Below are positions 1-19,100 of a stretch of DNA of 64,000 nucleotides, in pieces. Origin of the DNA: Candidatus Omnitrophota bacterium. GTDB lineage: Bacteria; Omnitrophota; Omnitrophia; Omnitrophales; Aquincolibacteriaceae. The stretch's first letter is position 1; each line of letters opens with the position of its first letter. The notes below the pieces were generated by a model. That model was not told where the DNA came from, did no database searches, and saw nothing but the letters and a program-made list of their open reading frames with translations. The stretch spans positions 84,634-148,633 of the forward strand of contig CAIOAT010000047.1 of the NCBI GenBank assembly GCA_903856085.1, read 5' to 3'. A program made the position numbers and the translations under genes.

Positions 1-1160
1 TATGGAGTGTGTCCTCAGTGAAGGTGAAGATGTCGTCTACCGATTTCAAAACACCGTACTCTTTAAAGAGAGCGATGGTCGCCGGCTTATTGCCGTCCCC
101 GAGCAGACCTTCGTCAGGATAGGCGCGGACATAGTGCCGGTAATAATCCCCGGTGATTTTATCTGCCAATTGAGGTAAAGCTTTCTGGAGCGCACCCTGG
201 CCGAACAGGACGTGCTGAATGGTCATCGCCAAAGGTATGACGATCGCTGATTTTCCGAAACCGGTCGGCGCGTAAAGGTTTTCATATTGAGCTACTACGA
301 ACCTCAGGATCGTCTGATACTGACTGACGCTTTCCTTGTCACCAAGCTTTATGTTCATAACGTTCTTGCCCTCGAAGAACCGGACGATCCCGTTCACCTT
401 GCTGGCTAATTCAATCTCATGGTTCAAGTTCCGATCGAACTCTGCCAGTTCATTCGCTGAAAGTCCGTTCCGTAGAACCTGGAGTCTTTCCGCATTCTCG
501 ACCAGAACAACCGTTTGACTGGATTGATCCCACTCCAGCCGCATACCGTCCGGCACCAGGTATTTCCGATCCGAGAAATATTCAGCCATCCCCGCAGCCC
601 CCTGGTCGATGAGCTGTTGCTTGGAAAGCGCCTTGAAGATGGAATCCGGATTGTCTGCGGCAGCCCAGGTACGGAGCCGGCTCATTTCGTTTCTCACAAA
701 CGCCTGGACCGGCAGCGGAACGTTAAAGCGTGCGGCTCTTTCTTTCATCATCCGGTCACGGATGGATGTCACAAGCCGCGTGGGTTTGGCCATCTCCTGC
801 TGGACATTTGTCAGCATGGCCCGGTAGGTATCGATCAAGCCCGTGAGCAAGCGAACCTCCGGGGGCCCGCGCGCCGGATCAACGAGTTGATCCACTTCCT
901 GCTTCAGATTGGCCGCCTGGTCCGTGACCAATCCCAACTGGATCTTCAGGCCCTCGAGTTCAGCCTCAAGCTTTTTGACATAATTTTGTTTTTGCAGGCT
1001 GCTGGGGTCGTTTGCCAGTTTTTGCTGGGCTTCGATCAACTGCAGCCGTTTATCGTTGAAACTGTTCGTGAGTTTATTTATAAAAACGTCTAAGGAGCGG
1101 CCTACCTCACTGATCGTCCAATCCAATTCCTTTCGCATGCTTTCTTCTGTGACATGAGCT
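1..1160 (-). other. SF2 (DEAD/DEAH-type) helicase-like ATPase domain, N-terminal part; the domain continues past the window start.
   Basis: Walker A / helicase motif I YAPTGFGKSAIVIPLAMT is encoded at 248-271 (minus). The flanking translation (verified 86-301 and 1256-1420) is globular-looking, e.g. ...FVVAQYENLYAPTGFGKSAIVIPLAMTIQHVLFGQGALQKALPQLADKITGDYYRHYVRAYPDEGLLGDGNK... No stop in frame through 1-1480. Confidence 0.6.
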
Positions 1161-4100
1161 ACTGCCGCAGGCGCAGCTTGGGGCGCCTGGACCAGCGTGG
1201 CCGGAGCAGTTTTCACCGCATTGGGAACCGCCGACGCTACGACCCCTGGAGTGGCGGGAGCTTTCCCGAACTTCCCTGAGAACCAAGCCATCATCCGTTC
1301 CAGAGCGGACATTCCGGGAGCATTTATTTCGATCAGCTGATCCACTTTCGCTTTTTGCGCGATGGTCAACGATCCATCGGCGACAAGTTTTGCCATGACA
1401 GCTTTGACTTCATCCACAGAGGCTGGTTTCTCCGCCGAAGGAACCCCGCCAAATCCGAAAATAGACTGCAGTGTTTTTCCTGCCGCCTGGGGTCCGCCGT
1501 TCAGGACATCGAGGTTATTTTTGACGTGCACAGCGATTTGTTCAGCGATGGCGCCGACGATACCGCTCAAGAGGCCTTTTTCAGCGCCCTGCGCGGCTTT
1601 GATCAGATCAATTCCCTGTTTTTGGGCAAACTGCCAATGGACCCCCAGGCGAGCCATTATAAATTCAAGGAACGAAGAACCAACGGGGCCGGTTGTGGAG
1701 ATCTGCAGTGCCAGCCAGCTTGCCACTGCCCCCGGTAAGTGGAACAGCGCGAAAACAGCCGCGGATAAATTGACAAGCCTTTTTGCGGCCTTCTCGCCAA
1801 GGAAGGAACCGATCGCGGCAGGTATTCCGATAATGACCGATGTTTCGAGGACGGGCATAATGTAACCGTTGATGATCCTATTCAGGACCTGTCCGATGTT
1901 TTGCCCGAAGACCTTGCTCGAAAAATTTGTCAGGCTTTCCAGGACCGATCGCACGATGCCGGCAGGCCGTGTCGTAGTCGCCAGAACAGCCGGAGCAGTG
2001 AGCGCGGTGGGCGAAACATTTGATTTTTCGATAGCGGGGATCGTCTTAAGGCCCGCCTGATCAAAGAGGAATGCCCGGTGATGTCCGTTGTCAATAGCAA
2101 TCGAACCATCCGGCAGGTGCAGGATCTCGATAGGATTTGCCTTCGTGAATTCAATCAGCTTGGCGATCGCTGCGGGGCTTGCTTTAAAGGCAGCCAACAT
2201 TTCTCCCATCGTCGCATTCCCGGGGATTTTCATCCCAAGAACATTGACCAAAAGATCGTGGATGCTCTGGATCGTGACTCCCTGGCGACCGATCTCTCCC
2301 CGAGGCGTTCTCAGGCTGTCGATCAGAATTTCTTCCGGAGCGGTGGCGGGCGTCTGGACGGTTGTTGCGGGCGCTGTCGTGCGTCCAAGAATGCGGTCAA
2401 TAATGGCACGGAACAACTCCGCGAACCCGGCGAAAACGGATTGAACCTGACCCGTTGATCTCCCGCCGATATTGGTGCCGGCAACACCGCCCTGGCCTTC
2501 CACAACGGGAGTTGTCCCCTCGGGAAGTCCCGACAGACTGACCGCCGAAATTTCCGCAAGGATGGGCAGAATGTTCGCCAAGGCGGTACCCCGGATATTT
2601 CCGAGATTGATGTCCCCGACTGTCGCAGGCTGATGTGCCAAGCTATCTCGCAAAGCCACCGCCTGGCTCGCCGTAAAATCGGCCGGCAGGGTGAACGAAA
2701 CCGTTGCAAATCCCTCTGGGATCGCCGTGATCACGGCTGTTATTTGACTATCCGTCAGATCTCGGCCAAACGTGATGGAAATATCCTGCGCTCCACCGGG
2801 TACGGTCCTCTGTATTTCCATAAAAAGATCGCGATTTAGGCTCTCCACATTCCGCCCGTTAATCTCGAGTTCGACCATCGGCGCTCTCGCCGGCGCTTCG
2901 GATTCGGTTATGCCGTGCTTCAATGCGTCGGCGGCTCGCGTCACATCGATCGGCGCCTCCTGGTGCCGGTAGGCCGCCTGATCGCGAACCACCGAGGCAC
3001 TATCAAAAGTTTCGTGAGTCGTTCTTACTTCAACACCGATCCCCGTAACCGCCCGGATGAAATCGAGAATCCCGGACGCGGGTGCTTCGTGTGTTCCCGC
3101 CTTTATTTCGCCTGGGATTTCCGTTTGCGGACGTTCGAGCTTACGCGTCGGTGCTTCCGCTCTCAAACGGGCCTGTTCGGCGGCATCATCCATGCTCTTC
3201 TGAGCAAAGCTCTCAAGGTCTAATCCTTCTTTTACTGCTTCATCCACCTTGAGCCTCATGCTTTCGCCCGCCTTGAGAACTTCGGAGACCAAGTCGGACT
3301 TGCTCAGATTTTCTCTTTGCAACTTACCGGTTCCCGAGAAAAACTCGCCGATAAGACTATCCACTCTTCCCCGAAGGGCCTCATTCGCGAGCGCACGGGT
3401 AAGCGCCGTTGCCAGAACATCGACGAGCTCATTCCCCTGGACCGCACCGATATTCGTGATCTCGCCGATCCTGAGGCCGAACTTCTCTTGAATGGCGTTG
3501 CGCAACCCTTCGGCATCCAGCGTACCGTCCGCTCTGGTAAAATTTTTGACCAGGTCTATCATTTCGAGGCGAACATTTTCCGGCACGGACGCCGTCGTGA
3601 TACTGCCCAGCATCTCTTGGATCTGCGCGTCGATACCTTCGGCACCCCCGAAGAAAAGCTTCATGGATTTCTGGAAGGCGGAGAAAACATCCCCTTCCAT
3701 CAAGGCGCGCTCCAAGGACCTGCTGTCCGCGGCCTCGATATTGTTCTGGGCCCTGACGAATGCCTCGCGGGCCCACCGGGAAGTCGGGAAGAATTCCGCA
3801 AGCCTCTGATAAGCGCCGTCCACAAACCGGCTCAAGCCTGACGACATTCCTTCCCCAAATCCTCGCATTAAAAATTCACCGCTGCCGATTGCCGTTCCTT
3901 TTTCGAGCGATACCAATTGATAGCTGAATCCCACATCGCCCTGGCGGCCCGCACGGCCACGATTCTGCATATCTGCCCGGACGGAATCGTTCACCCCGAT
4001 CCCGATTTGAACAAGACCTTGGGTCTTCAGCAGTTCTTTAAGCTTGATATCCGTTCCGCGGCCGGCGATATTGGTCGCGATTGTAATGCCTCCCTTTTCA

Positions 4101-7100
4101 CCCGCGGCTTTGATGATATCGCTTGACGCTCTCTCATTGCTCGCATCAAATGTCCGGAAGAGATCACCGTTTTTGGTATTCATGGAATCCAGGATTTTCT
4201 TGGCACGCTCGACGACCACAGGATCGAAGACAATCTCCTTGCCGGCCGCGTCTATGCCTTTACCGCTGGCGAATTCTTCGAGGATGGCTCGGACATGGAC
4301 TTCCATTTCTTTGGCGCTTTGGATAGATAACGTTGTGATCAGGAAGGAGCTTCCCGCATCCAGGAGGTGCCGCGCCAAAACACTCTTCAATCCGTTCGGC
4401 CCGTTCAGGAGGTCCGCGTCGCTCCTAAAAGTCCTCATTTCCGAGTCAACCCGTAGCTGCAGGTTGTGCGCGGGAATCTCCGCCACCTCAAGACCGTAGA
4501 GGCGCTTGAGCGTATCAGGCGTCCGGCCTTCGGTCGCAGTGCCGGTCATACCCGTAACCCTCTGAAAGAAGTTCAGAACGTCCCGTGTCTGGATACGGGC
4601 CGTGGTCACAGTCTCAGCATGAATGGCCAAACCTTCTTTAGCTTCAATAGCCTGGTGGAGCTCGTTCAAACGCTGACCGTTTTGATCGGTGCCGGTTTCA
4701 CCGCTGATCAGTACGACATTTCCTTGGTCATCAACGCGATATTGGACCCCATCATGGAAAAGGATTTCGGCCTGAACGGCCCGGTCCAAGAACTTTTGTC
4801 CTTCCGCCGTCAAAGTCAAACGGCCTGATCCGTCTGTCGCGACCTCAACAAACTGGTGGAGACCCTCGGCTTGCAGTAAACGCGCGGCCAGTTCACGCCC
4901 GGCATCGGTTGCATGGGCAAAACGTCCCGCTTGATCGAAAACCACCTCAAATTCTCCGGCCACTCCCTCAGGTCCCTTCACGCCGCTCCTGAAAACTTCG
5001 GTCCCTATCTTGGTGCGTTTCAGCTCACTTACTATTTTCGCAAACGCCGTCAAGATGTCCCGCTGTCCATTCCCAACAAGCTTTCCGGATCCCGAAGAGA
5101 TAATGAGAGGTGTTTTCGCGAGCGTGATCAGAATGGAGTCGGCCTCGTCGATCACGAGCAGGAAGTCCCGGAAATCATGTCTGAAAATTTCCTGGCCCGG
5201 TTTTGCCTGGATATCGTTGTACACCTGATCGGCCTTCAAAGCCTCGTCGCTCACATAAACAATGCTTCGCGAATAAACATCCTGTTTTTGACCCAAGTCC
5301 ATATTGTCGTGGATATACCCGATATCCTTACCCAGGAAATCCGCAATCGCCACCACCTCTTTATAGGCGGCTTCAGCCCGCTCCGTCGTTGTAGTCTGCA
5401 TAACCGCGTGGCCACTGATCAAGGCTGTCAAAAAGCCGACATAGGTTTTTCCTTCACCGGTCAGGAGCTCGGCGATCTTTCCGCCCTCAGCCATAACCGC
5501 AGACGCCATGAGCTGTTCCCGGTGAAGCACAACGGCGGGCCTGTCCGGATTACGGGCCGTTTCGACAAATCCGATCGCAAGCGCATAAGCCGCAAAAAGC
5601 TTGTCACCCTGGGCATTATTAATTAAGTCGAGGAGCGCCTCGCGGATCCTGCCAAGATCTTCAGGATTCCGGCAGAGATCATTTAACACGGCTAACGCAT
5701 CCCGGCCTTTCAGTTCGATGCCTAAGGCTTTCACAATTTCGACCGCTATGTCCCGGCGTATCGAAATAATGCTGTTGACTCTCGCCGCGAAGGGCGCTCC
5801 GGCAATCCGGTTGGCCTTGAGAATCACCCACAGTCCAGGCGCCCTCCCCGTGAGCCAAGCAAACCACGACGACCGGCCGAACAGACCCGTCTCACCCAGC
5901 TTAAAGTTATCCCCGTTAAACCTACCAAAAAGGACGTTGATTTCATCATCAGTCATTCTGGAAAGATCCGCGTTCCTTAGAGCTTCAAGCATGGCAGGAT
6001 CAACAGATTCACCAATGCCCTCTCGCAAAGATTTCCACTCTGTCAGGTAAGACTTGCCAATGTCCGCACCGCCGCCCTCAAGGGATCCAAATACGGCTCT
6101 TTCCAGTTTCTGGAGGGCTTCGAGAGTCACCCTTCTCTCGGAAATCGAGAGCGAGCCGATCCTGCCACCAACAGTCATCCAGGTCGAATTGAACCACTCG
6201 ACCGCTTTCGAGAAAACGCTCTTGAACCGATCCCCGAAAGTCGTTGTCTGTCGATCCCGTATGGCTTTTTGAACATCGGCAAGTGATCGATTCACGTCTG
6301 CGGGCACGTTCGCAGGATCGAATGTTCCGGGAGTTTGGGTCACAGTTTCGGGAGGCGTGATCTCCGGGAGCTTTTCGAAAGGCTGGCGTCCCGCATTAAG
6401 AAGAAGGTCCGCCGAAATTTCTCCTCTCCGGATAGTTTCACGGCCCACCATCACGAAATCCCCGCGGACAGCCAGAGTCTCGCCGGAGACAATGACCAAT
6501 GTTTTTCCATTCAACGAATCCCGCAAAGCAGGGTCAGCTTCGATCAGCCCTTGCAACCGTGACAACAATTCAGGCGATTCTCCGACGCCATCCCATGTCA
6601 GTCTCAGGGTTCCGTCGCTCGCGAATTCAATCGTGATACGACCCTCGACTCTGATGCCGGCTATCCTCAAGATCGAATCGATGAGAGGATTCCTGGCCCC
6701 GGGCTGGGCAAAGGTCACGACCATGTCTATGATATCGAGTAGACCCGTTGCTAAGGCAAGCCGAGTCACATCCCCACTCGGAATGGTATCGTTACTATGG
6801 GCCCCGAAAACATCGGCCAATTTCCCGGCAAACGCTTCCCAGCTTGATACATCGGCGCCTCTAAGCTCATTCAGGGCTTGCATCATTTCAGGCGACACCC
6901 CTTCGCCTCTTACATTGGCCCGCTGCTCCAGGAATTTCACGAAAAGATCTCTTAATTGCGGCAAGTCAACAGAAACAACATCTCGGGCCAGCAAGGTGAA
7001 AATATCGCGCAGCAATTCAGCGGCGAACCGGCCATTTTCGCGAGCACCCACAGCATCGACCGTGTGCAGCTCTGTCATCGAAAACATAAGTTCCGTGTGG

Positions 7101-10100
7101 AAGATCAAATCCCTTTCCAGAGAGGTTAGATCCCTTCCGCTCATAGCTTCAAAGTCAACCATGATGCGCTCCGCCCGGGCCAAACCGACCAACACAGGCC
7201 GCATTTCCCCAAAACCTAACTCGCCCCCCCAGCGCCGGATGAGCAAGTCCCCGATGAAATTGTTTGTCCAGTGGCTCAGGTCGATCCGGTCGAGCTTCAA
7301 CCCGCTAACATCAATGCCAAGGCGCGCGAGCTCCAGGATGATCTCTGTGAAATTGCCACCGAGTTTTGCCAGGTTTGCCAAGTCCAGCTTCCCGGTTATC
7401 CTGCCCCCTCCGAGGACTACCCCGGCGGCTTGAAGTTCCGCCAGAAGCCGTATTTGATCCGGCGTCAATCTGGCTCCATTCAGTTCCCCGGTGATCTCCA
7501 GTCCGCGCATGTCGACGCGGCTGTCCAACATGGTTTTCAGATCGCGGAGCGTGGAAAGATCCCCCAATCTCGCCACGTCAAAAGTTCCGGTCATTTCGAT
7601 GCCGCTAAAATCCGCGCCTCCCACCAGATCACAAAGCCGCGCAAGGTCGGCAAGACTGGTCCTTCCAATGTCGATCATCCCGGCAAATTTGATCCCGCTC
7701 AAATCCCCGCCCAATGCCCGGAGTGTCCCAAAATATTCGAGCTGAGCGTCATTGAGTTTTAACAATTCGTTGACGGTATAGTCTCCTGAAAATTTGATCC
7801 TTCCCATGTCGAGACCCATGTTTGCAAGATCGATCAAGGCGCCGAGTATGTCACGATTTCCTTCTAGCGACCTGACATCAAACGACCTGTCTACTCCCAG
7901 CCGGTTCAACAAGCTCGCGTCCAAGGAGCCATTCTCACGCATCGCACCCAGGTCTTTGACAAAGCTCGCGAACCCGGCATCCGACCACCCGCTCATATCC
8001 AACGTCACACGGAACACGCCGTCTCTGATGGCGGTAAGGAATTCGCCCGCGAGAATATCCATGGTAGCGAGCGTTTCGCCAATCCGGAAACTGATCTCGC
8101 CCAGCCTCAGGCGGTCAATGCCGAGGCTCCCCAACGCCGTCAGTGCTTCCCTGAGGCTGACTGCCTCCGGGAGATCCAAGCTGACCCTAAGACCTGTCAG
8201 ATCCAATCCAAGCTCGCCCAATTTGCTTAAAAACTCAAGAACGTCCGTGGCTCTCAAAGTCCCGGTGGTTTTCAGATCGCCGTTCACTCTGATCCCGCTC
8301 AGGTCGACGCCTTTAACGCTCACCAAATTGATGAGATTTGAAAGCACCCCGTCCGTCACTAGTTTCACATCCAGGGTTCCCTCAATTCTCAGGTGGGTCG
8401 TGTCAACGCCGACATCTCCAAGAACTTTGAGAGCACTTGTCAGCGTATTGCCATTAAGCTTTGTCAGATCAAGCCTGCCGGATATTTCGACATTATGCAG
8501 GATCGCTCCCGCGCCTAACATGTCTGCGAGGATTTGCAGCCTTTCACCCGTCAAGGTCGCGCCATCCAGTTTTCCGGTAATGATTTGATCTCTTAAACTT
8601 GTCAGGTCGATCTTGACCCCTGCGTTTTTCATTGCGTCGACTAATTTCAGAACATCGCCGAGCGACGATTTTCCGGCGCCTTCTCCGATCAGATCCCCGG
8701 GGATCTTGACCTCAAACCCTGTCGGCGCTCCTATCAGCTTGAACTCGATCCCCACACCAAGCATCCGCAGCAATGCGTCGCGCAAGCCGATGGAATCCCC
8801 CGGCTTGAAGTTCTTGAGATCCACGGTCACTTTCGTACCCCTAGGAACATCCACCAACTGGGTAAGATCGGCAAGAGAGGTCACGCGTAACGTTCTCGTG
8901 AAGAAGTTCCGGGAGATCTGCGTTAATGACGTGACGCCAAGCATTTGTTCCAGGGCCCTTGCATCTTGCGTACTGAGTTTCTTAGTGTTACTAAACTCGA
9001 GGCCAGAAAGATCCGCGCCTAATTCTTTCAGGCCCGAAAGATCTGCGCCGGTTTTCGCGAAATCGGAAACACTGATCGTTCCGTCGAGCCGGACGCCTTT
9101 CAGGCTAAATCCGTCAGGCAGAGAATCGACCACTTTGGATAAATTTTCTTCCGTGAGACCGGTTAAAACAATATCTCCAAAACCGCTCTGGCGAAGGAGA
9201 TCCATCGTGCGACCCAAGGTCGAGTCGGCGCCAAACCCAGCTGTTTTTACGTCGATCGTGAAACGCCAACCTTCTGTACCGTCTGCCCCACGCACAAGCT
9301 CCGGTATGATCCAAACATCAGTCCCGATCTTCTCGCGAATAGCTTCCATTTTGGTTTCTATTTCGGTGTGCAGCCGATCCGGCAGGTCCTTGCCGACTCC
9401 GGAGATCACCATAGCGAGCTGAGATGCTATCTTCTCGCCGAATACCGGGGTCAACGCAATGGTCCAAGCATTCATCACGATCCCGAGATCAATAAAAGCC
9501 TGGCTGAACGCAAAACCTTCTTTGGCGAGAGCCTTAATCATGACTTCCAAGTACTTGGCGACGGAAGGATTTTTGCCAAGCGTCGCGGCCTCTTCGCCAA
9601 GAACCGCTCTTTCCACGAGAGGGAAAAGCTTGTTGAGATATTCAATGACGGATCCCACCACAGGCATCCCGTGGATCAACACCTCGACCGGGCCTATGAG
9701 GTACATCAAGGGGCCCATCGAAAGCATATTCGTAAAATTATCAAAAGCGCTCATGCTGGCAAAGTCCCAGAATCCCAAAACCCCCCGCAGGAACATGGCC
9801 GCCACCTGGACAACGAATCCGCCCTTGCCGGTTCTCAAAAACGCCTCCAGATCTTTTTCCGATTGGGCAATGGCCATCCGGAAATCGATCGATCCTCCGG
9901 TCAAGAATTGGGCGAGTGAAAGCACAACATTCTCCCCGAAATGCAGAGACACGCCGAAACGGGCCAAGCTGAATGTTTGAGCCAGCAGGAATTTCCATGC
10001 CAGCACTCCCCTCGCTCCGGGAACGAATATTTGAAGGCGTAAAGCAAGAAGTCTGGCAAATTGTGCCCAGGTACCCGTTACGCCGCCTATGGCCGTGAGC

Positions 10101-13100
10101 TTGGCGGTTTGCATGATTCTCCCGGCTATTCTTGCCAGCCCTGAAGTGAAACCTAAGAAGGCGGCTTCCGCGGCAAAGCCGATGAAATCGATGACGTTAA
10201 TTCCGAACAACTTTTTAACCAAGGTTTCATCGCTCGCCTCGGCGATAAGAGCGATCTTCTGAGAAATAATATTATTCTGGCCATCCAACTCGGCAAATCG
10301 ATTCCCCGTGACTCCGATGAGGCCGCCCAAACCATTAAAAAGCATGGCATAGGTCGCGCTTATCCTGAAAGGATCACAACCATACGCGAGAGCAATGAGC
10401 CCGCCAGTCAGCAGGACACCGGCCACGATAGCAACACCGATCCAACCGCCGGCCACAAGAAAGGTTCCGGCAGCAACAGCCGCAGAGATTTTAACGACGG
10501 CAAGTACAACCGCAATTGCACCCACAATGATCGCCACCCCGGTCGCAATGACGTTATGCTCCCCAGCAAACCCGACCCAATAGTTGGAACACATGGCATA
10601 TTGATATTGCAAATAATGGAACGATGTGCTTAATCCGTAAGAAATAAAATCATAAGCTGTGCTAAAGCCGTACCCAATGCCGCTCAAGATGCTTTGCCCC
10701 CACGCTGGCAAGATATCGTAAATATCGCTAAAATATCCGCCGACTTCGGCACGGAGTCTCGACCAGAAGCCTCTCTCGGTGAGATTTTGCATGTCCGCCA
10801 GCGAACCCTCATGCAACTCGGAGAAGAAAAAGCCTTCTTCCTGAGACCAGCAGGTGACGGCGCAGTCGAACGCTATCCCGCCAAGCGATACGCCGCTGGT
10901 GATAGTGCCGTCAGCCAGAATGTTGAGACTTCTGAATTGAAGAGCCGAGTAATTGCCAAGATTTTCCGTGAAGCCATTCTTGAACCCGTCATTCAGGCCG
11001 CGCTGGGCGACGTTGAGGAGACCGCCCTTAAATTTCCCGAAATCCCCTAGGCCGTGAAGGATCTGTGTTCCGTTCTGCAGAACTACCCGGTCGTCCAGGA
11101 CTTCAGAAAAATTCGTGTAGTCCATTTTTCCGTCAAGGATAAAACCGGCGGTCGAGAAGTCCAAGTAGCCCTTCTTTACACCCCCGTCTGAAATCTCCAC
11201 AATTTCACGCCGGAGCAAGACGCCGTCGCGGCCAAGGATATCCTTGACCGTGCTGCCATCCGCCCCGACGGTCAGGATCTCGCCGCTCACGATCCCGAAG
11301 TGATCGTAGTTCATGGTCTCGGTTATCTTGTTGGTGCCAAAACCGTAGACCACCTGCACGGAGGTCACCGAATCGATCAAACCGCCCTCGCTCGTGTATT
11401 GCGAAGTGGTGGTGACGATCTGCGTCGCGACCTTGGTCACGCCGTCCGAGAGGACCTTGACCGTGTCATCGGCGACTTTTGTCACCTGGGTCCAGGCGCC
11501 GCTCGCATCGTAGAACTTTTCCCACTGCGTCTTGACCGCCCCGCCCGTCGCTATGTACGACTCGTAGGATTTGAGGCCGTCGTCATAAAGCGTTTTTAAC
11601 TTCCCGAAACCGTCACTGGTCGTCATCTCGACCTGCATCCCGTAGAGGAAGGACATCGACTCGGCTTCCGTCGGGCTCATGAGTGTCGCATTGCCGTTGA
11701 TCTTGACCGCGACAGACTCCGCGGCGAGTTTCCTTCTCCTCTCGTCCAACTGCTTTTCGATCCCCGCCCATGTTTCCGCTTGGTAGCGACCGGTCTGGAT
11801 GATCTCGCCGCCGGCGCCGACGAAGATGTGCTCTTTAATCCGCTCTTCGATGACGTCTGTATCCGAGATTACGTCGTTGTAATACAGCAGGCTGTTGTAG
11901 GCGCGTGCGCGGCTGGCAAAATTCCCGTCCCGGTCCTGACTCAGAGCGCCGAGTTTCATGAGGCTCGAATCTGCCAGCACGGCGTTGTAGTCGTAGAGGC
12001 TGCTTGAGGCGAATTTTTCGGGATCGAATTCATAGAACTGGTAGGTCATATTCTGCGACCAGTTCTCGTAATTGCTCCGACCTCTCAGGAGCTCATCGGT
12101 GAAGATCTGGCTGAAAGAGGTCTTGTCCGATTCATAGCCGTATTCGTAGTAATCGCGGATCGGCAGCAGTGTGTTCTCCGTAAAATTAAGCACCAGCCCG
12201 CCCAGGTTCACAATGTCCGTATAGAGCCCCTTCGTGTTGCCGCCGCTCACCGAGTAATCGGAGATCAAGAAAACAGTCTGTCCGGCAGCGTTCTTTGTGC
12301 CGATGCGGAACTCCTTCAAAAGATCCGTAATGTACAATGCCTTGGCCTGTTGCAAGCCCTCGAGACCGCCGGTCCCCTTGCGATTATCATTCCCCATTTG
12401 ATAGGTTGACCCATGAAGCACGGACTGGATCACGTCCTTCATCTTGGCGTAAAGGTCGAAGAGACCTTGTTTGGGGACATTGCTTCTGTCGTTGGCCGTA
12501 GTGCCCCACAGATCATCGCCGCGAAGGTTATCGGTCAGCTGTTGGACATAGGCCACGATAGGAGGTTGGCCCGGCAGAGTCGGACCTTGTAAACGCGTAT
12601 CGTAAGCATAACGTATGAAATACGGGTTGCTTGTCTGCGCGGAAGAATTATTATTGTTGTATACGTCACCCTGGCTGATACTCGCAGTCACATCGCCGAA
12701 AATTTTCTGCAGCCGGCCGTTCGGGCCGAGCATGGAATTGGCGAAATCATCCACGATCATCTGGATGCCACCGTTAAAACTTCCCTGCGAAGGAACGTGC
12801 CCGCCGGCCTCAAAGCCCGTCGTGTTATAAGCGTTGACCAGTACGCCGTCGCTCTTCGGCTTTTGGATCGTGCGTAGATCGCGCCCGGAATCGGTGGCGA
12901 AGTCCTGGAACGCGGCACCATTCGAATCTCCGTGCAGCAGGAACTTCCGACGAATCTCTTCCATTTTCTTGGCATAAGTCCCCTTGATCGTCGCAAAAAC
13001 GGGCTGGCCGTCTTCGATCCCCACCTGGACTTTGTTGAAGCGGTTGTCCCCGATGATCGAATTTTTATAAATATCCGTGATAATGGCGAGCTTGCTGTTC

Positions 13101-16100
13101 TTGTACATGGGGATCGTTCCGTAATTGACGAACTCCTGATCCGTGATGATCCCGTTTTGGAGAAGCATGTAGAGCCCGTTTAAGAATGTGCTCGACGAAG
13201 TCATGGTCGTATCGGTCGAGTCCTTCCCTCTGAGCTCATCCAACTGTTCCTGCGCCATCGACTCATCCAGCGTGGCGCCGGTGATGCCGAGGACATTCAC
13301 CACTCTTTCGTTGAAATCCTGCTGGGATTGGAAATACTTGGGCGAATCGCCCGTGATCTCGCCCACCATGCGCACGAGCTGCTTTTCCGATTCGGTGAGC
13401 CCTAGCTCCATTTTGCTGCCGATCATCGTATCAAGGATCTTGAGACCCACTTCTTTAAAGACCGCGGCCTGTTGTGCCGGGGTGTCCGTCCCGAAGCCGT
13501 AGATATCGAACGACTTGAGGAAGAGCGCGAATGCGGCATCCAGGCTATGGCCCTCGGTACCCGTAAGCATCGGCCGCCACCAGCTCTCCGACCCCATGTC
13601 CGGAATGATGTAATTGTTGGCAAAGGTGCCGTAGAAGAGGTCGTTGAGGGCTTCCGTCAGCGCCTTGAACTGCCTGTAATAGGCCTGATCCAGCACTTCC
13701 TGGCGGGCTTCCGGAGTAAGGAAGTGGTTGTACGGACTATTGTAATCATTGTAAACCAGATACATCTGATGAAGCTCGGTGCCCAAGGCCCGCATGACAC
13801 GGAAAGCCTCTTTGACGACGCCCTCGCCCAGTTGCGCGGCAACATTCTGATAACCGGCCATCTGGCGCAGGCTCGTGATCTTGTTCTCAAGGCCTGCGGC
13901 ATCTACCATGAGCTTGTCGACTTCGCCCCTGTAAGCCACAAGCGCCGTTTTGGCCTTGGAGGTATACGTATCCCAGGCCTGCTTCTCGGCCTCGTCGAAT
14001 TTTCCGTTCACAAGATCGATGCCTGTGGTAGCCGAGGAAGTGGAGAGGACATTCTTGGATCCGGTGCCGCCGACATGCGTGTTGTAGACCCGTTCCAGAT
14101 AAGTCTCGATATTTTCCTCCGGATTCGCGCTCAAGGCCGGCATGTCTTTGGCGGTCTCGAGGTGGAAGATCGTTCCCTTGTAGATATCCACGATCTGATC
14201 GAACCACTTGTCGAACTGATCCGTCATCCAGGTCAGGCCGCGCCCCATCACGTCTGAGGATTCCTCGCCTTTTTTGTTGACGCTCACGGTGATGAACTGA
14301 CCCGGATTTTTCGGATCGGGGATACGGACGTCCTCGATCTGGTCCTTGGTCAGGTACATCGTCATATCGTGGAGGATGCCGAAATTGCCCTCGCTGATGG
14401 ACTCCAAAGGCGATGTCAAATCCAGTTCAAACGGATTGCCCCAAACCTCGGAGAAATCGCCGAGCATGTAACGCACCAGGTAATCGCGGTAAGCCTTCTT
14501 GTATTCGTTCAGCGCATAAACCGTGCTAAGGAACTCCTGCTCCCCGCTCTGACCGGCGAGAGCGCGCTTACGGGCCGCTTCCAGGAGGTACTTCGCCATC
14601 GTGGTCTCGAGGTCTTTTAATTTATCCGCCAGCAGTTTTCCTCCGGACCCGATTTCATTGACATAGTCGCGGTAATAATCCTCCTCAGTTTTCTCGAACC
14701 AATCCTGGGACGCGTCCTTGGAGGTCATATTTTCTTTAATGAGATTCGAATAGGCGCTTAATTGATCCACCTTGGTCGGATCTGTCGGAGCGTAAGCCGT
14801 AACGGACTTTTCCACCACCGTGCGGGTCGGGAGATACTTGTTGAGGATAAAATCCTTGTATTGCTTCGCGAGAGTCCCATCCTCATCCGCATTCGTGGCC
14901 AACGCGGGCATGAAGTCGGTATCAATCGCATTTTCAGGATCAAGACCGGCTTTGGCTTCATTGTTTACGAGATCGAGCACCGTCTTGGTCGCCGCATCAG
15001 TGCCCTTTGCCTTGACCGTTTCCTGATAGGAACTGTTGGCGATCTCGCGTTGAATGATGTAGCGGACCGAGGAGGCGTATTGCAGCTTCCAGGAGAGCGA
15101 GCTGTCGCTATCGAGGATCTTCAGGGCCTTGTCCCGCAGGTTCGCCACGCTGTCGTAACGGCTGGGATCCGTCCGGTTGAGCTCTTCCAACTGAACCGGC
15201 AGATTGTAGGATTCGAGTGAAGTGCGGAGATCCACCGCCAGCTCATTCGTCGAAAATTGCGTCCGGATGTTGCCGTACTCCTGGATAAAACGCTTGGCGA
15301 CATCCACATACTGATAATATTGCGTTGAAATATAGTCGAGCATGTGCATGACAGGGTCCGAATAGAAATTCGGCATGGCGCTGACGTCCGTGATGCTTGA
15401 GCCGATAAGGGTCAGAACGCTCTGGTCCCACTGGCGCTTGATCTGCGTCGCATCGAGCCCGCGGAAGATATCGTCCATCTCAAGGACCAGAGCCTTGTAG
15501 TGGTCGATATTCTCGAGCAGCGGATTCACGATCTCGTGGTTCGAAGAGTCAAAACCGCTGATGGCTTCTTTCGGGTTTTTCATCAGAGTTTCGGTGAATT
15601 GCACCAACTCAGACATGATGCTGTTCAGACGGCTGACGCCTGCCATGCTCACGTTGGCCGAATCGCCGGTATAAACCGTCGAACCCTTATCCCAGATCGG
15701 CTCGATGACGTCCATAAAGAAGGTCTGGAATCCGCTCGCGCTGATCTCCGCCGCGCTCTCGGCCGTGAACGTGTTCGTCATACCCTGGTTCTTGTTCAGC
15801 ATGCCGGCAAGGCTCTTCAAGCCGCTCACGGTGTCAAGTGTCAGGTCCGCGGTCTGCTTGATCGTGTTGTGGAAGAGCATTTCAACCTGGTAGTCGTAGC
15901 GGTCGATCTGGCCGGTGGTGTAATTGTCGGCATTGATCAGGGCATCCTTGGCTGCACTCGTCGGAACAAGGAGGTCCTCGCCTTCCGAAAGGGCCGTGAT
16001 ATCTGTCCAATTCTGGACGTCCTGCGTGAATTTGACCGAATTGGGCTGCGACGATGAGGCCAACAGGAAAGCCAGGACATCTTCCTCCGGAGCTTTTTTG

Positions 16101-19100
16101 TCGGCGAGTTCCGTGGAGCTGACCATGTACGAGGTGCGTCCGCCGACAAGCCGATCGTTCTGGATCGCTGCATTCCGCGTCGAGATCTCCTTGCGAAGTT
16201 CCGCGTCCTTGGCCTGCTCCGTGATGTAGGTCTCGTATTCGGTTCGGGCGATCTCAATCCAGTTCTTGTCAGCGTTGTCGGAATACAACTGACCCGACTG
16301 ATTGTCCTTCGTCGCAAGACCGTTTTGAACCTTGCCCATCAGCTCAGTGTATAAAGTCTTTTTGGCCGTAAAGTACTGGGCTTCCTGGGCAATCATGTTG
16401 TTCATCAACGTGACCAGTTGTCCGCCCGCATGCGCACCGGTGGTTGTGGATGTATACTCGACGCGCTGGATATAATTGTCGTCTTTCACGCCCTTGCTAC
16501 TCACATTGGTATTCCAGTTAACACCATTCGTATTAAGCGATGCCGCTGCCGACAGGGAACCAACGCCTGAAACAGCACCGGAATTCCCCTTAGGTCCAAA
16601 GGCTGTGTAATCCCAACTAAAGAGTTCACTGATAAGCGATGTGTCATTCTTGTAATTGATCTGCATCCGCGGGAATTCTTCGAGGAAGAGATTGCGGACC
16701 GACTTCCCCGCCACGGGCGTCAGGTAATCCCCCGTACCGCAAGCTCCCGTGCTTCCGGAGCCATTGGTGCACTCGTTCAAATACTTTGTCATGAAATCAT
16801 CTACGCTGAGGGTCCCGGTAAAAGCGGGATCGCGCTCCCGAACCTGAACATACCGCTGGATCTCATGCGTCAGGCTGTCATCCAGACTCACAGCGAGATT
16901 GGTCTGCGCGTCCCCGGAGCCTAGCGCAAGAGCCGTCGTCTGATCGTCCGGGTTGAAACTATTCAGCGGGTTGTCGTCCTTGAACATCACCCCCGAGAGA
17001 TCATTCAGGAAGCTCTGGAAATACGAGACCGAGACTTTCCCCGTCGAATCCACGGCGCCGCCTGAAGTAAAGGTCAAATTCCCTACGCTAAAAGTGTCGG
17101 TCTTATCAAAATACGATGAGCCCGGCGTCAGGATCGGGAAATCGAGGCCGTACTCAGACGCCGTATTCTGGGGATTGTTTATAGTATCAACGGCAGCTAT
17201 ACCTCCGGCGACAGCACCCGCAACAGTTCCAGTAGAACCGCCTGAAAGCAAGCTCGCCATCCCGAGCAATGTGGCCAAATAGCCGGCGGTGTTGGTGTAG
17301 TTGCCATCGAGCGGAATTTTCCTGGAGTACCAATCCATGAGGGCACGCGTATTCCCGTTAAACTGAGCCTCACTTGAGACAAGATACTGACCGCCAACCT
17401 TAATGCCCGCGACATCTTGAATCAGCGACCATTGATAGAACTGAGCCTGCAGGGTTTTCATGGAAGTCATGATCGACGTATCCGCCGTCGCGCGGTTCGC
17501 ATCCATTGCCGTGGTAAAATTTGAGAAGGCGGTTTCGATATCCGCCATGGCGGCCTTGAGCGGTGACGCGTCGCGGGCCACAACGCCGGATGAATAGACC
17601 AGACCATCGAGCTGCGGACTTTGGTTCGAAACAATGTCGTAAATATCCCCGTTGATGATGTGATTCGTGTTGTCCCCGCCGGTGGCGCGCGTCACGCTCA
17701 CAAGAGGACTGACCGTCGTGTTCGCCGTAAAACCGTTCTTTCCGAGGTCCCCGGACCCGCCAAGGATGAAATCGAGACGCTCGCGGTATTCCGAGAAATA
17801 CTTTGAGCGAAGTGTCGTCGGCGCAAGCGGATAAGAGGACATGTCTTGCGGGATAAAGGCGAGCGTGGATTTATTCACCAGCGCGGTCGCGTCATAGCTG
17901 GCACCCAGCTGGTAAACACGCGCCTCGATCGACGACGAATCGAACACCTTGGTCAGCGTGATCTTCTTCGTCAGAGAGTCATCACTCAGATCGTTCCCAT
18001 CGGTGATGTTGACCCAGGTATTCCCCACTTTCTTTTGCGGGCGGTAGATCATCGTGGTTCCGGAATATCCCGCCACATCTTGCTTGTTGTAGACCTGGAC
18101 CTTGTAATAGTAGCCGTCTGCATCCTTTTGGACCGTGGACTGATAATCAAAATTCCCGATCGAATCGCTCGTAAGTCCGGTCGCATTCCCGGCAAGACTC
18201 ACGATCGAGCCCGTCTTGGAATCGAATTCAAAGCGGACGGCGCGGCTGGACTGGAAGGCAGCGCTCAGGCCCGCGAGCTGGTCCGCGCTCTCGGTGGTCT
18301 CGTCGTTATGGAGCAGCTCGAGTACCCCGTCGGAGCGGCGGCGCAAGTGGCTGTATTTGGTATAATCGCTGTACTTGGTCGGGATCGTCTGGTTGTAATA
18401 TTCCTCGGCATCTTCCGCGATAAAAACGCCTTGTTCATAGACGAGGACATGCCGCGTATCCTTGAACGGGAGTCCGACCTCGGTCACCCCGAATTGCGGG
18501 GTCAGGTGCTCGATGTAAGTTTCCTTCATCTTCATCGGAACACCGTATTCGTCGCGGATCACCCAGGAATTACGCAAATCAACAGCATTCAGGGGCACAT
18601 CGGCCGAGACGTTTCTCCCCTCCGCTCCGTTCATGGGAACGATATACCGGTCATACGTGTAGGCGCGCACCGTCGCGAACGCCGACCGGTCATCGATACC
18701 TGTTCCACCGCTCAAGAAGGATTGCCTGACAGCGTCGTAGAGGCTGGCATTCTCTGTGCTGAGACCCGCGCCCGGCGCGGAATCGAAGGCGATGTCGTAG
18801 AGCTTTTCGTTTTCACGGCCCATGACTGAGATATTCCCGTCGGAATGAAGGATATAAGTCTCGATCGGCTTGCCCGTGGAGTCTTTCATGATATTGCCGC
18901 TTGTGTCACGCATGTAAGAGTACCGCTCCACATTTCCGGTTCTGTCCACGGTCAGGAGCGTCATCCCCTCGGCATCGGTAATGACTGAAGTGTGGTCCGA
19001 AGTCGCATTGTACAAAGGATTGTTCGTCACCTTCTGCAACTCATCACTGCCGATGGTTGAGCTGAATATCTGACTGACCCACGAACCGTCACCGTTTTTG

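What the first reader, a model, noticed from the sequence alone, without database searches (positions are those of the whole stretch)
3930..5650. A SecA-like DEAD motor ATPase domain is embedded in-frame inside the giant protein
Four near-identical SecA signature motifs occur with SecA-like order and spacing, including a roughly 200-aa PPXD-sized insertion: TGEGKT, DEAD-SIL...KTPLIIS, GMTGTA and TNIAGRGTDI, followed by RGRAGRQGD. The domain has no start or stop of its own. It is flanked in the same phase by leucine-rich repeats upstream and further domains downstream. A SecA-type translocation motor fused into a giant membrane-anchored surface-type protein is not a described architecture. It could act as a cis-acting, self-dedicated export or extrusion ATPase, or as a mechanoenzyme.
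Basis: partly seen in the sequence, partly recalled or inferred. Interest (0 to 1): 0.85.

Follow-up and report, generated by a model that had tools for sequence, protein, structure and literature searches.

The report
SecA-like motor inside giant surface protein
A SecA-type protein-export ATPase really is fused in-frame near the C-terminal end of a giant (>21,000 aa) dockerin-bearing membrane protein, but this architecture was already described in 2023 for giant proteins of Omnitrophota bacteria, so this is a new, divergent example of a known and still uncharacterised oddity.

Summary
The whole 64-kb window is one minus-strand ORF of 21,333 codons, open at both ends. Window 3134-5527 (aa 19492-20289) encodes a SecA-like module. 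Pfam finds SecA_DEAD (E 7e-33), SecA_PP_bind and P-loop_SecA. All 25 PDB sequence hits are SecA or SecA2, as are the top 36 fold hits of two models. Every ATPase motif is intact.

The novelty claim is wrong. West-Roberts et al. 2023 (bioRxiv 10.1101/2023.11.21.568195) describe SecA_DEAD plus preprotein-binding domains after C-terminal membrane anchors in 'Dockerin-type' and 'Archaeovorin' giant proteins. They already propose self-export. The window fits the Dockerin type: dockerins, EF-hands, DUF1080, then a TM hairpin, then SecA. The closest modules (30-36% identity) lie in Omnitrophota and Elusimicrobiota proteins, several of them contig-truncated fragments.

One point is new. That preprint says scaffold and wing are absent, but profile-profile comparison shows a divergent SecA scaffold helix and wing region after NBD2 (Prob 93%; shuffles at most 0.23%). 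No two-helix finger, N-terminal lipid-binding helix or zinc-finger tail is detectable.

Most likely it is a membrane-tethered, cytoplasmic, catalytically competent SecA paralogue dedicated to handling the giant protein. That function is inferred, not shown. It is a new member of a known kind, of moderate interest.

The parts
2..64000 (-). Single giant ORF: 21,333 codons with no stop, open at both window ends. Residue n starts at window nt 64000-3(n-1).
   Evidence: The plus-strand ORFs that overlap it have no Pfam hits. Internal repeats are only weak, 26-46% identity, so it is not a repeat-assembly artefact.
43436..61255 (-). Extracellular-type region. It holds multiple Dockerin_1 domains (for example aa 916-963, 4579-4637, 6804-6855), EF-hand-like sites and one 3keto-disac_hyd/DUF1080 domain (aa 5388-5548, window 47357-47839).
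   Evidence: Dockerin_1 E 4.5e-45, 6e-34 and 1.6e-10; 3keto-disac_hyd E 9e-10.
10385..10552 (-). Strong transmembrane hairpin: aa 17817-17835 and 17854-17872, with Kyte-Doolittle 19-residue means of 2.87 and 2.43.
   Evidence: hydropathy only; no dedicated TM predictor was available.
9404..10210 (-). Further moderately hydrophobic segments (aa 17931-18199). They are possible extra membrane helices, so the number of membrane crossings is not resolved.
   Evidence: KD means 1.1-1.7.
7271..9043 (-). Leucine-rich region with a recurring unit of about 33 aa of the form '..L..LG..G.DLSGI.f.G.ld' (aa 18320-18910).
   Evidence: Leu 17.8% against 9.4% overall; motif spacing 31-35 aa. No Pfam match and no homologue in the word-index database.
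3134..5527 (-). Whole conserved SecA-like module (aa 19492-20289), shared with long Omnitrophota and Elusimicrobiota proteins.
   Evidence: BLASTP to P0121 covers aa 19492-20289, E 5e-95; exhaustive HMMER; family alignment A2.
5081..5527 (-). NBD1, first half. It carries the Q-like HREQL (5510-5524), Walker A TGEGKT (5444-5461), Walker B VIDEADSIL (5129-5155) and KTPLIIS (5096-5116).
   Evidence: (columns invariant with 37 canonical SecAs).
4643..5056 (-). PPXD-like insertion (preprotein cross-linking domain), aa 19649-19786.
   Evidence: SecA_PP_bind E 1.7e-6, 29 bits, above the 23.5-bit cut-off.
4496..4660 (-). NBD1, second half: LHQAIEAKEG (4631-4660) and motif III GMTGTA (4535-4552).
3896..4495 (-). 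NBD2 (IRA2). It carries motif V TNIAGRGTDI (4046-4075) and motif VI RGRAGRQGD (3935-3961), and has an insertion of about 45 aa (aa ~19898-19950) relative to canonical SecA.
   Evidence: P-loop_SecA E 2.8e-15; alignments.
3416..3883 (-). Divergent SecA scaffold/wing-like region (aa 20040-20195). It contains LMRGFG (3854-3871), the long-helix motif AQNNIE (3734-3751) and the wing-like LDAEGLRNAIQEKFGL (3473-3520).
   Evidence: hhalign of the family profile against the canonical SecA C-terminal profile gives Prob 93%, E 2.6e-7; the sub-regions align in register, P 6e-5 and 3e-4; 15 shuffles give Prob <=0.23%; collinear BLASTP; long helix at pLDDT 65-86. Pfam SecA_SW is not detected.
3134..3415 (-). 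Helical tail of the module (aa 20196-20289). It is conserved within the giant-protein family and occupies the place of the SecA two-helix finger, but has no detectable similarity to it.
   Evidence: family conservation; helices H721-760, H765-788, H793-813; hhalign not significant, P 0.12, out of register.
1700..1852 (-). Weaker hydrophobic pair downstream of the module (aa 20717-20767). It may be a further membrane segment.
   Evidence: KD 1.67-1.74.

Best explanation
Window 3134-5527 (minus strand) encodes a divergent SecA paralogue that is permanently fused into the cytoplasmic, C-terminal part of a 'Dockerin-type' giant membrane protein. The source is most probably an Omnitrophota-like bacterium.

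Shown:
- The module has NBD1, PPXD, NBD2, a divergent scaffold helix and a wing-like region.
- All residues needed for ATP binding and hydrolysis are kept, both here and across a family that is only about 32% identical.
- The module lies about 1,600 aa after a strong transmembrane hairpin. That hairpin follows about 17,800 aa of extracellular-type sequence (dockerins, EF-hands, DUF1080).

Inferred:
- Because it needs ATP, the module sits on the cytoplasmic face.
- The covalent membrane anchor replaces the amphipathic N-terminal helix that tethers ordinary SecA to lipids.
- The motor binds unfolded polypeptide in its PPXD clamp and uses ATP to feed giant-protein chains through SecYEG. Because it is translated last, it most plausibly acts in trans on the next copies, or on late segments and partner proteins. 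It would then be a private, cargo-linked counterpart of accessory SecA2 ATPases.
- Since no two-helix finger is recognisable, it may push substrate differently from SecA, or only hold and unfold it.
For: Identity as a SecA-type motor:
- Pfam finds SecA_DEAD at 7e-33, PP_bind at 1.7e-6 and P-loop_SecA at 2.8e-15.
- All 25 PDB sequence hits are SecA or SecA2.
- In Foldseek, the top 36 hits for both models are SecA or SecA2 (E 1e-32 to 1e-10). Other SF2 helicases score E>=8e-9.
- The second model was built from 10 family sequences only and reaches pLDDT 72.

Catalytic competence:
- Walker A, Walker B, motif III, motif V and the motif VI arginines are invariant against 37 canonical SecAs.
- They are invariant or nearly so within the embedded family.

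Scaffold and wing.

Embedded architecture and topology order. GC content is homogeneous across the junctions.

The family is made of long membrane proteins of Omnitrophota and Elusimicrobiota. At least two (P0121, P0124) run to the start of their contigs and so are truncated fragments of longer genes.

Literature:
- The same architecture and the same hypothesis are in West-Roberts 2023. That study also reports that such genomes carry a separate normal SecA and SecYEG.
- SecA lacking its N-terminal 20 residues is rescued by an artificial membrane tether (PMC9418451).
Against: - There is no experimental evidence for any function.
- The motor is C-terminal to the exported region, so strictly cis, co-translational self-export is implausible.
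- The two-helix finger that drives substrate into SecY is not detectable.
- Pfam SecA_SW is not detected, and a canonical C-terminal HMM against this sequence alone is not significant.
- The number of membrane crossings between the extracellular part and the module is unresolved. The cytoplasmic location therefore rests on the ATP requirement.
- The first 3D model was built on a canonical SecA alignment and is biased towards SecA. Its C-terminal third has pLDDT below 50.
- The source genome is unknown, so the presence of a housekeeping secA or secYEG could not be checked.
Confidence: 0.5

Rival explanations
1. The SecA-derived motor has been co-opted for a job other than protein export through SecYEG. 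Examples are a cytoplasmic unfoldase or holdase, a force-generating 'winch' acting on the giant protein's own tail, or part of a nucleic-acid-handling or effector-loading cassette in the long cytoplasmic tail.
For: - No two-helix finger is detectable.
- The N-terminal ~55 residues and the zinc-finger tail of SecA are absent.
- Motifs that are near-invariant in canonical SecA are changed here: IDEAR becomes ITLAK, and GFDYLRDNM becomes ALKADQVYND.
- A second helicase-type Walker A (APTGFGKS, window 248-271) and a DNGHHR motif (2072-2092) lie downstream in the same tail.
- The motor is translated after its supposed cargo.
Against: - The PPXD, which is specific to polypeptide clamping in SecA, is retained above the Pfam cut-off.
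- The scaffold helix and wing are retained.
- The nearest structures are all translocases.
- The downstream motifs have no Pfam or PDB support.
- The module always occurs in membrane-anchored giant proteins next to TM segments.
Confidence: 0.25
2. The module is released from the giant precursor, by proteolysis or by internal translation initiation. It then works as a free, SecA2-like accessory ATPase.
For: West-Roberts 2023 note C39 and S8 peptidase domains in many giant proteins that could cut them into pieces. One relative, P0122, is annotated as C39-domain-containing.
Against: - No peptidase domain was found in this window.
- No stop codon follows the module.
- No SD-like motif precedes any in-frame start near its N-terminus.
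- A freed module would lack SecA's lipid-binding N-terminal helix.
Confidence: 0.15
3. The module is a decaying relic: an inactive pseudo-ATPase kept only as a structural spacer.
For: Long branches and rapid evolution are reported for these domains. Identity to any SecA is only about 30%.
Against: Every catalytic motif is intact here. The motifs are invariant or near-invariant across family members that share only about 32% identity. This is the signature of selection on ATPase function.
Confidence: 0.05
4. The finding is an artefact: an ordinary stand-alone secA gene whose boundaries were missed, or a chimeric assembly.
For: None found.
Against: - There are 21,333 codons without a stop.
- GC content is homogeneous across the junctions.
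- There is no strong internal repetition.
- Independent relatives in other assemblies have the same embedded arrangement.
- The module lacks the SecA N- and C-termini.
Confidence: 0.02

Closest known systems
SecA-like domains embedded in giant Omnitrophota proteins ('Dockerin-type' and 'Archaeovorin' giant proteins; West-Roberts et al. 2023, bioRxiv 10.1101/2023.11.21.568195)
   Same: - A giant ORF with a long N-terminal part that has dockerin/EF-hand and DUF1080 domains and lacks strongly hydrophobic, TM-like segments (only two weak hydropathy peaks, KD 1.7-1.84, before the hairpin).
[quoted passage not shown]
- No Pfam SecA_SW hit.
- The nearest module relatives are in Omnitrophota proteins.
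   Different: - The module is only 30-36% identical to the nearest relatives.
- The flanking 1,670 aa (TM plus Leu-rich region) have no detectable homologue.
- No TSP3, discoidin, GNAT or C39 domains are found in the 21,333 aa seen.
- This copy keeps the canonical KTPLIIS, whereas relatives have T(S/N/K)FI(R/I).
- Profile-profile analysis here shows that a divergent scaffold helix and wing are present, which the preprint reports as lacking.
Canonical SecA (housekeeping preprotein translocase ATPase; for example B. subtilis 1tf2/6itc, E. coli 2fsf)
   Same: - NBD1 with PPXD inserted, and NBD2.
- All ATPase motifs.
- The LMRxFG linker, the 'AQxxxE' long scaffold helix and the 'WDxxGL...FG' wing motif (here LDAEGL...FG).
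- The order and spacing of these elements.
   Different: - It is not a free ~100-kDa protein but an internal segment of a >21,000-aa chain.
- The first ~55 residues (lipid-binding helix) and the C-terminal linker with zinc finger are absent.
- The two-helix finger is not recognisable.
- NBD2 has an insertion of about 45 aa.
- IDEAR and GFDYLRDNM are altered.
- Identity is about 27-32%.
Accessory SecA2 ATPases (for example C. difficile 6t4h, M. tuberculosis 4uaq; aSec systems exporting serine-rich-repeat adhesins, PMC6973325)
   Same: A second, divergent SecA alongside the housekeeping one, apparently dedicated to an unusual, very large surface protein. SecA2 structures are among the top fold hits.
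   Different: SecA2 is a separate soluble protein that works with SecY2/Asp partners or the general SecYEG. Here the ATPase is covalently part of the presumed cargo. No specific sequence affinity to SecA2 over SecA1 was seen.
Generic DEAD-box and other SF2 helicases
   Same: The RecA-like twin-domain motor with Walker A, DEAD, and motifs III, V and VI.
   Different: Foldseek E-values are 18-20 orders of magnitude worse than for SecA. No helicase Pfam family is hit. The PPXD insertion and the SecA-specific motif wording (GMTGTA, TNxAGRGTDI, RGRxGRQGD) are present.

Membership tests
SecA (preprotein translocase ATPase) | NBD1 DEAD-like domain with Walker A (GEGKT) and Walker B (DExD) | tested here: met
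   PF07517 E 7.2e-33. The motifs are invariant in an alignment with 37 SecAs.
SecA (preprotein translocase ATPase) | Preprotein cross-linking domain (PPXD) inserted into NBD1 | tested here: met
   PF01043 E 1.7e-6, 29 bits, above the 23.5-bit cut-off. The models show a β-rich insertion at the expected place.
SecA (preprotein translocase ATPase) | NBD2/IRA2 with motifs V (AGRGTDI) and VI (RGRxGRQGD, arginine fingers) | tested here: met
   PF21090 E 2.8e-15 and alignments.
SecA (preprotein translocase ATPase) | Helical scaffold and wing domains (Pfam SecA_SW) | tested here: inconclusive
   Against: Pfam SecA_SW is not hit even at E<=10, and a single-sequence HMM search is not significant. For: the family profile against the SecA C-terminal profile gives Prob 93%, E 2.6e-7. 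The long helix and wing sub-regions align in register at P 6e-5 and 3e-4. Shuffled controls give <=0.23%.
SecA (preprotein translocase ATPase) | Two-helix finger (IRA1) with conserved tip (LRxYxQxDPL) | tested here: not met
   hhalign of aa 20196-20300 is not significant and out of register. MAFFT/BLAST (tip at VKEGLDLESFAQK) and hhalign (tip at KLQRENL) place the tip at different positions. Helical hairpins are predicted there, so a structural analogue is not excluded.
SecA (preprotein translocase ATPase) | Free-standing protein with an N-terminal amphipathic lipid-binding helix; often a C-terminal zinc-finger (SEC-C) tail | tested here: not met
   It has no start or stop of its own. The Pfam match starts at model position 78 and BLAST at SecA residue ~83. 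There is no PF02810 hit.
SecA (preprotein translocase ATPase) | ATP-driven translocation of preproteins through SecYEG | not testable with these tools
   This needs biochemistry or genetics. The source genome is not available, so even the presence of secYEG or secA could not be checked.
Dockerin-type giant protein of Omnitrophota (West-Roberts 2023) | Giant ORF (tens of thousands of aa) | tested here: met
   >=21,333 aa and still open at both ends.
Dockerin-type giant protein of Omnitrophota (West-Roberts 2023) | Many dockerin/EF-hand repeats and glycan-related domains such as DUF1080 in a long N-terminal part without strongly hydrophobic, TM-like segments | tested here: met
   Dockerin_1 E 4.5e-45, 6e-34 and 1.6e-10, EF-hand families, and 3keto-disac_hyd (DUF1080) 9e-10. 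Before aa 17817 there are only two weak hydropathy peaks, KD 1.84 and 1.70 at aa 7246-7264 and 11658-11676, against 2.87 and 2.43 for the hairpin.
Dockerin-type giant protein of Omnitrophota (West-Roberts 2023) | Bacterial thrombospondin type 3 repeats and discoidin repeats | tested here: not met
   No PF18884 or F5_F8_type_C hit in the 21,333 aa of the window. The part of the protein N-terminal to the window was not seen.
Dockerin-type giant protein of Omnitrophota (West-Roberts 2023) | [quoted passage not shown] | tested here: met
   TM hairpin at aa 17817-17872, then the SecA module at aa 19492-20289.
Dockerin-type giant protein of Omnitrophota (West-Roberts 2023) | Encoded in an Omnitrophota genome | not testable with these tools
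   The source contig was not found in GTDB representatives or JGI metagenomes. The assignment is inferred only from the nearest module relatives, 6 of 7 named ones being Omnitrophota.
Accessory SecA2 | Separate secA2 gene, usually with secY2/asp or dedicated substrates nearby | tested here: not met
   The module is not a separate gene. No other gene is present in the window.
Generic DEAD-box helicase | Best sequence and fold matches to RNA/DNA helicases, with no PPXD | tested here: not met
   No helicase Pfam hit. PDB sequence hits are SecA only. Helicase folds score E>=8e-9 against 1e-28 to 1e-32 for SecA.

The most novel reading that the evidence does not exclude
The embedded module is a near-complete SecA: motor, clamp, scaffold helix, wing and a remodelled finger. 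It is hard-wired to the membrane by its own cargo. Resident giant-protein molecules would then act as dedicated, self-encoded translocation stations. They would thread the next multi-megadalton copies, or dockerin-binding partner enzymes, through SecYEG or a private pore formed by the adjacent hydrophobic segments. That would be a cargo-encoded export motor with a pushing element unlike the canonical two-helix finger.
Probability: 0.25. Interest if true: 0.75.

Novelty: new member of a known kind. Interest (0 to 1): 0.4.

Why it matters
How bacteria export and anchor single polypeptides of 20,000-150,000 residues is unknown. A SecA-derived ATPase built into the cargo itself is the most concrete clue to that process. 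This example adds a divergent, catalytically intact copy. It also shows that more of SecA is retained than the published description states: the scaffold helix and wing are present, while the recognisable two-helix finger and the lipid-binding N-terminus are gone. That narrows the mechanistic hypotheses and defines a roughly 830-aa construct (aa 19470-20300) that could be expressed and tested. It does not establish a new class of system. The architecture and the self-export idea are already in the literature.

Full report
**1. What is in the window**

Translating the minus strand in the frame whose codons start at 64000, 63997 and so on gives 21,333 codons without a single stop. The frame is open at both ends of the window. 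No other frame stays open for more than 507 codons. I number residues so that residue n starts at window nt 64000-3(n-1).

Plus-strand ORFs overlapping the region (up to 495 aa) have no Pfam hits and look like antisense noise. Internal protein repeats are only weak, at 26-46% identity. GC content is even, 0.52-0.57, across the first 12 kb. Nothing points to a repeat-collapse or chimeric assembly.

**2. The observation**

- HREQL at 5510-5524
- TGEGKT at 5444-5461
- VIDEADSIL at 5129-5155
- KTPLIIS at 5096-5116
- LHQAIEAKEG at 4631-4660
- GMTGTA at 4535-4552
- TNIAGRGTDI at 4046-4075
- RGRAGRQGD at 3935-3961

Pfam scans of the whole 21,333 aa gave, for this region, SecA_DEAD (E 7.2e-33), SecA_PP_bind (E 1.7e-6, above the curated cut-off) and P-loop_SecA (E 2.8e-15). 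A phmmer search of all PDB sequences returned 25 hits. Every one is SecA or SecA2, and the best is B. subtilis SecA at E 2e-45.

I made two AlphaFold models. The first used an alignment with 37 canonical SecAs (pLDDT 59.5). The second used only nine embedded-family sequences plus the query (pLDDT 72.4). With Foldseek against the PDB, the top 36 hits for both models were exclusively SecA or SecA2 structures (E 1e-32 to 1e-10). The next folds were XPD, Hel308, Brr2 and UvrB-type helicases at E>=8e-9.

There is a strong SecA HMM hit. The fold is SecA and not a generic DEAD-box helicase. No gene boundary isolates the module: there is no stop in the frame, and no SD-like motif precedes any in-frame start between aa 19250 and 19500.

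One detail is only partly right. The 'leucine-rich repeats' are a Leu-rich stretch (17.8% Leu) with a unit of about 33 aa at window 7271-9043. That is about 580 aa upstream of the module, and it matches no Pfam LRR model.

**3. Anatomy of the host protein**

- Residues ~900-6900 carry several Dockerin_1 domains (E down to 4.5e-45), EF-hand-like sites and a 3-keto-disaccharide hydrolase/DUF1080 domain.
- Residues ~6,900-17,800 have almost no recognisable domain.
- By hydropathy, the first clearly membrane-like segments in the 21,333 aa are a strongly hydrophobic hairpin at aa 17817-17835 and 17854-17872 (window 10385-10552). Before it there are only two weak peaks, KD 1.84 at aa 7246-7264 and 1.70 at aa 11658-11676. 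After it come weaker hydrophobic segments up to aa ~18200.
- Then come the Leu-rich repeats and about 580 aa without matches.
- The SecA-like module follows at aa 19492-20289.
- After it lie another ~1,040 aa still in frame. They include a weak hydrophobic pair (aa 20717-20767) and, at the very edge of the window, a helicase-type Walker A (APTGFGKS, window 248-271).

**4. How much of SecA is there**

An alignment with 37 canonical SecAs shows the following columns identical in all 38 sequences: the Walker A lysine and threonine, the DExD box, TPLIIS, LHQAIEAKE, GMTGTA, TNxAGRGxDI, and the arginines of motif VI including the equivalent of E. coli R566. The residue numbering of E. coli SecA is from my own knowledge.

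The differences from canonical SecA are these:
- Similarity starts only at about SecA residue 60-83, so the N-terminal amphipathic helix is missing.
- IDEAR is ITLAK, and GFDYLRDNM is ALKADQVYND.
- NBD2 has an insertion of about 45 aa.
- There is no SEC-C zinc finger.

Downstream of motif VI, Pfam SecA_SW is not detected even at E<=10. An HMM of canonical C-terminal domains does not match this single sequence significantly.

However, homology with the embedded relatives continues about 265 aa past motif VI. I aligned eight family members over that stretch and compared the profile with a profile of 37 canonical SecA C-terminal regions. hhalign gave Prob 93%, E 2.6e-7 over 207 columns. Fifteen column-shuffled controls gave scores of 10-16 and Prob <=0.23%, against a real score of 58.5.

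Splitting the region shows where the signal lies:
- The linker plus long scaffold helix (aa 20023-20125; LMRGFG ... AQNNIE) aligns in register, P 6e-5.
- The wing-like part (aa 20126-20195; LDAEGLRNAIQEKFGL against the canonical WDxxGL...FG) aligns in register, P 3e-4.
- The final ~100 aa, where the two-helix finger should be, does not align (P 0.12, out of register).

A pairwise BLASTP to one canonical SecA is collinear across the whole length: query 24-826 against subject 83-817, E 3e-46. The family-only model predicts a helix of about 60 residues followed by helical hairpins at pLDDT 65-86. In Foldseek, full-length SecA scores better (2.4e-28) than the C-terminally truncated N68 (7.6e-21) or the bare DEAD motor (1.5e-10).

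My conclusion is that motor, clamp, scaffold helix and a wing remnant are retained. A canonical two-helix finger is not demonstrable.

**5. Relatives**

The word-index database and the GTDB genome scan returned only ordinary SecAs at ~30% identity, because the shared words are the universal motifs.

The exhaustive HMMER search of 1.84 billion representatives put long proteins on top:
- P0121 (2,804 aa, E 1e-84)
- P0122 (7,130 aa, 6e-79)
- P0123 (5,528 aa, 6e-55)
- P0124 (4,183 aa, 5e-49)
- P0125, P0166, P0201, P0218 and P0138

Canonical SecAs begin only at about 1e-42.

Source names identify six of the seven named relatives as Candidatus Omnitrophota/Omnitrophica. One of these is KJJ84089.1, 'membrane protein containing SecA DEAD-like domain protein'. 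The seventh is Elusimicrobiota and is annotated as C39-peptidase-containing.

P0121 and P0124 run to the start of their contigs, so they are C-terminal fragments of longer genes. Outside the module, nothing in the window's last 3,600 aa matches these relatives. The TM plus Leu-rich region has no homologue at all. The source contig itself was not found. Attribution to Omnitrophota is therefore an inference.

**6. Comparison with what is known**

West-Roberts et al. 2023 (bioRxiv 10.1101/2023.11.21.568195) make the following statements:
[quoted passage not shown] - These genomes also hold normal SecA, SecYEG, SecB and SecD.

A 2026 preprint (10.64898/2026.06.07.730766) lists a 20-protein PF07517 architecture cluster among long Omnitrophota proteins.

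The window fits the Dockerin type on four of five features: giant ORF, dockerin/EF-hand/DUF1080 content, an N-terminal part without strongly hydrophobic TM-like segments, and a C-terminal TM anchor followed by SecA. TSP3 and discoidin repeats were not found in the part visible here.

The one point where my analysis departs from that paper is its statement that the scaffold and wing domain are lacking. They are undetectable with Pfam. A divergent version is nevertheless supported by profile-profile comparison and by the models.

**7. Mechanism**

Shown: an intact, selected ATPase core with a polypeptide clamp, placed after a membrane anchor in a protein whose N-terminal ~17,800 aa look extracellular.

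Inferred:
- *(a) Location.* The module is cytoplasmic, because it needs ATP. The parity of membrane crossings is unresolved.
- *(b) Tether.* The covalent anchor substitutes for SecA's N-terminal amphipathic helix. This is consistent with the report that SecA ΔN20 is rescued by a His-tag/Ni-NTA-lipid tether (PMC9418451).
- *(c) Role.* It engages unfolded polypeptide and SecYEG to assist export or membrane integration of giant-protein chains. The motor is synthesised after its presumed cargo. At typical bacterial elongation rates (my own estimate) a chain of this length takes tens of minutes to make. Action in trans, on subsequent copies, late segments or dockerin-binding partners, is therefore more plausible than true cis self-export. 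Functionally this resembles accessory SecA2 systems dedicated to very large adhesins (PMC6973325), but with the ATPase fused to the cargo.

The missing two-helix finger leaves room for a different pushing mechanism, or for a non-export role as unfoldase, holdase or winch. I rate the export-motor reading at about 0.5, a co-opted non-export motor at about 0.25, release as a free SecA2-like protein at about 0.15, and relic or artefact at <=0.05 each.

**8. Verdict**

The feature is real and correctly located. Its identity as a SecA-type motor embedded in a giant surface protein is firmly supported. It is a new, divergent member of an architecture already described, though never tested experimentally. 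It is not a new kind of system.

Interest is moderate at 0.4. The biology is striking and unsolved, and this copy offers a clean construct for testing. The central claim of novelty does not hold.

Noticed in passing
window 2-64000 (minus strand): The entire 64-kb window is one ORF of 21,333 codons, open at both ends, so the gene is longer than the window. About 11,000 aa (roughly aa 6,900-17,800; window ~10,600-43,300) have no Pfam match apart from an EF-hand-like site near aa 10236.
   Followed up: partly
window 248-271 (minus strand; aa 21244-21251): A helicase-type Walker A motif ('YENLYAPTGFGKSAIVIPL') begins just before the low end of the window. It may mark a second P-loop/SF2 motor domain in the cytoplasmic tail, cut off by the window edge. 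There is no Pfam hit at E<=10 and no PDB hit at E<=1.
   Followed up: partly
window 2072-2092 (minus strand; aa 20637-20643): The sequence 'LHLPDGSIAIDNGHHRAFLFD' resembles the ParB/sulfiredoxin DGHHR motif. Pfam (E<=10) and PDB (E<=1) do not support it, so this may be chance.
   Followed up: partly
window 7271-9043 (minus strand; aa 18320-18910): A leucine-rich region (17.8% Leu) has a recurring unit of about 33 aa ('L..LG..G.DLSGI.f.G') between the membrane anchor and the SecA-like module. It has no Pfam LRR match and no homologue. Its structure was not predicted.
   Followed up: partly
window 5651-10663 (minus strand; aa 17780-19450): The 1,671 aa that contain the TM hairpin, the further hydrophobic segments and the Leu-rich repeats have no homologue at E<=1e-3 in the 5.8-billion-protein word-index search. 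Only the SecA-like module links this protein to anything known.
   Followed up: yes
window ~4150-4310 (minus strand; aa ~19898-19950): NBD2 carries an insertion of about 45 aa ('EVHVRAILEEFASGKGIDAAGKEIVFDPVVVERAKKILDSMNTKNG') relative to canonical SecA. Other embedded-family members have insertions of varying length at the same place, up to more than 100 aa in P0123, P0166 and P0138.
   Followed up: partly
L081:8752-13151 and L083:12662-17058: In two Omnitrophota relatives (P0121, P0124) the giant-gene fragment is followed directly by clusters of toxin-antitoxin genes (PIN, PhdYeFM, ParE/YoeB).
   Followed up: no
L082:26-21882: In Ca. Omnitrophus (JYNY01000405.1) the SecA-containing 3,856-aa ORF abuts an 850-aa ORF upstream and overlaps a 2,582-aa TPR-rich ORF downstream, all on one strand. 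They may be pieces of one larger gene split by frameshifts in a draft assembly.
   Followed up: no
window 35309-36796, 6357-7433, 4913-5626 (plus strand): Long antisense ORFs of 495, 358 and 237 aa lie opposite the giant gene. None has a Pfam hit, so they are most likely non-coding shadows of the minus-strand frame.
   Followed up: yes
window 1700-1852 (minus strand; aa 20717-20767): A weak hydrophobic pair ('VLETSVIIGIPAAIGSFLG', 'AAVFALFHLPGAVASWLAL') lies downstream of the SecA-like module. Relatives (P0122, P0123, P0166, P0201) also have hydrophobic, TM-like stretches (read by eye in their sequences) after their modules, so the motor may sit in a cytoplasmic loop between membrane segments.
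   Followed up: partly
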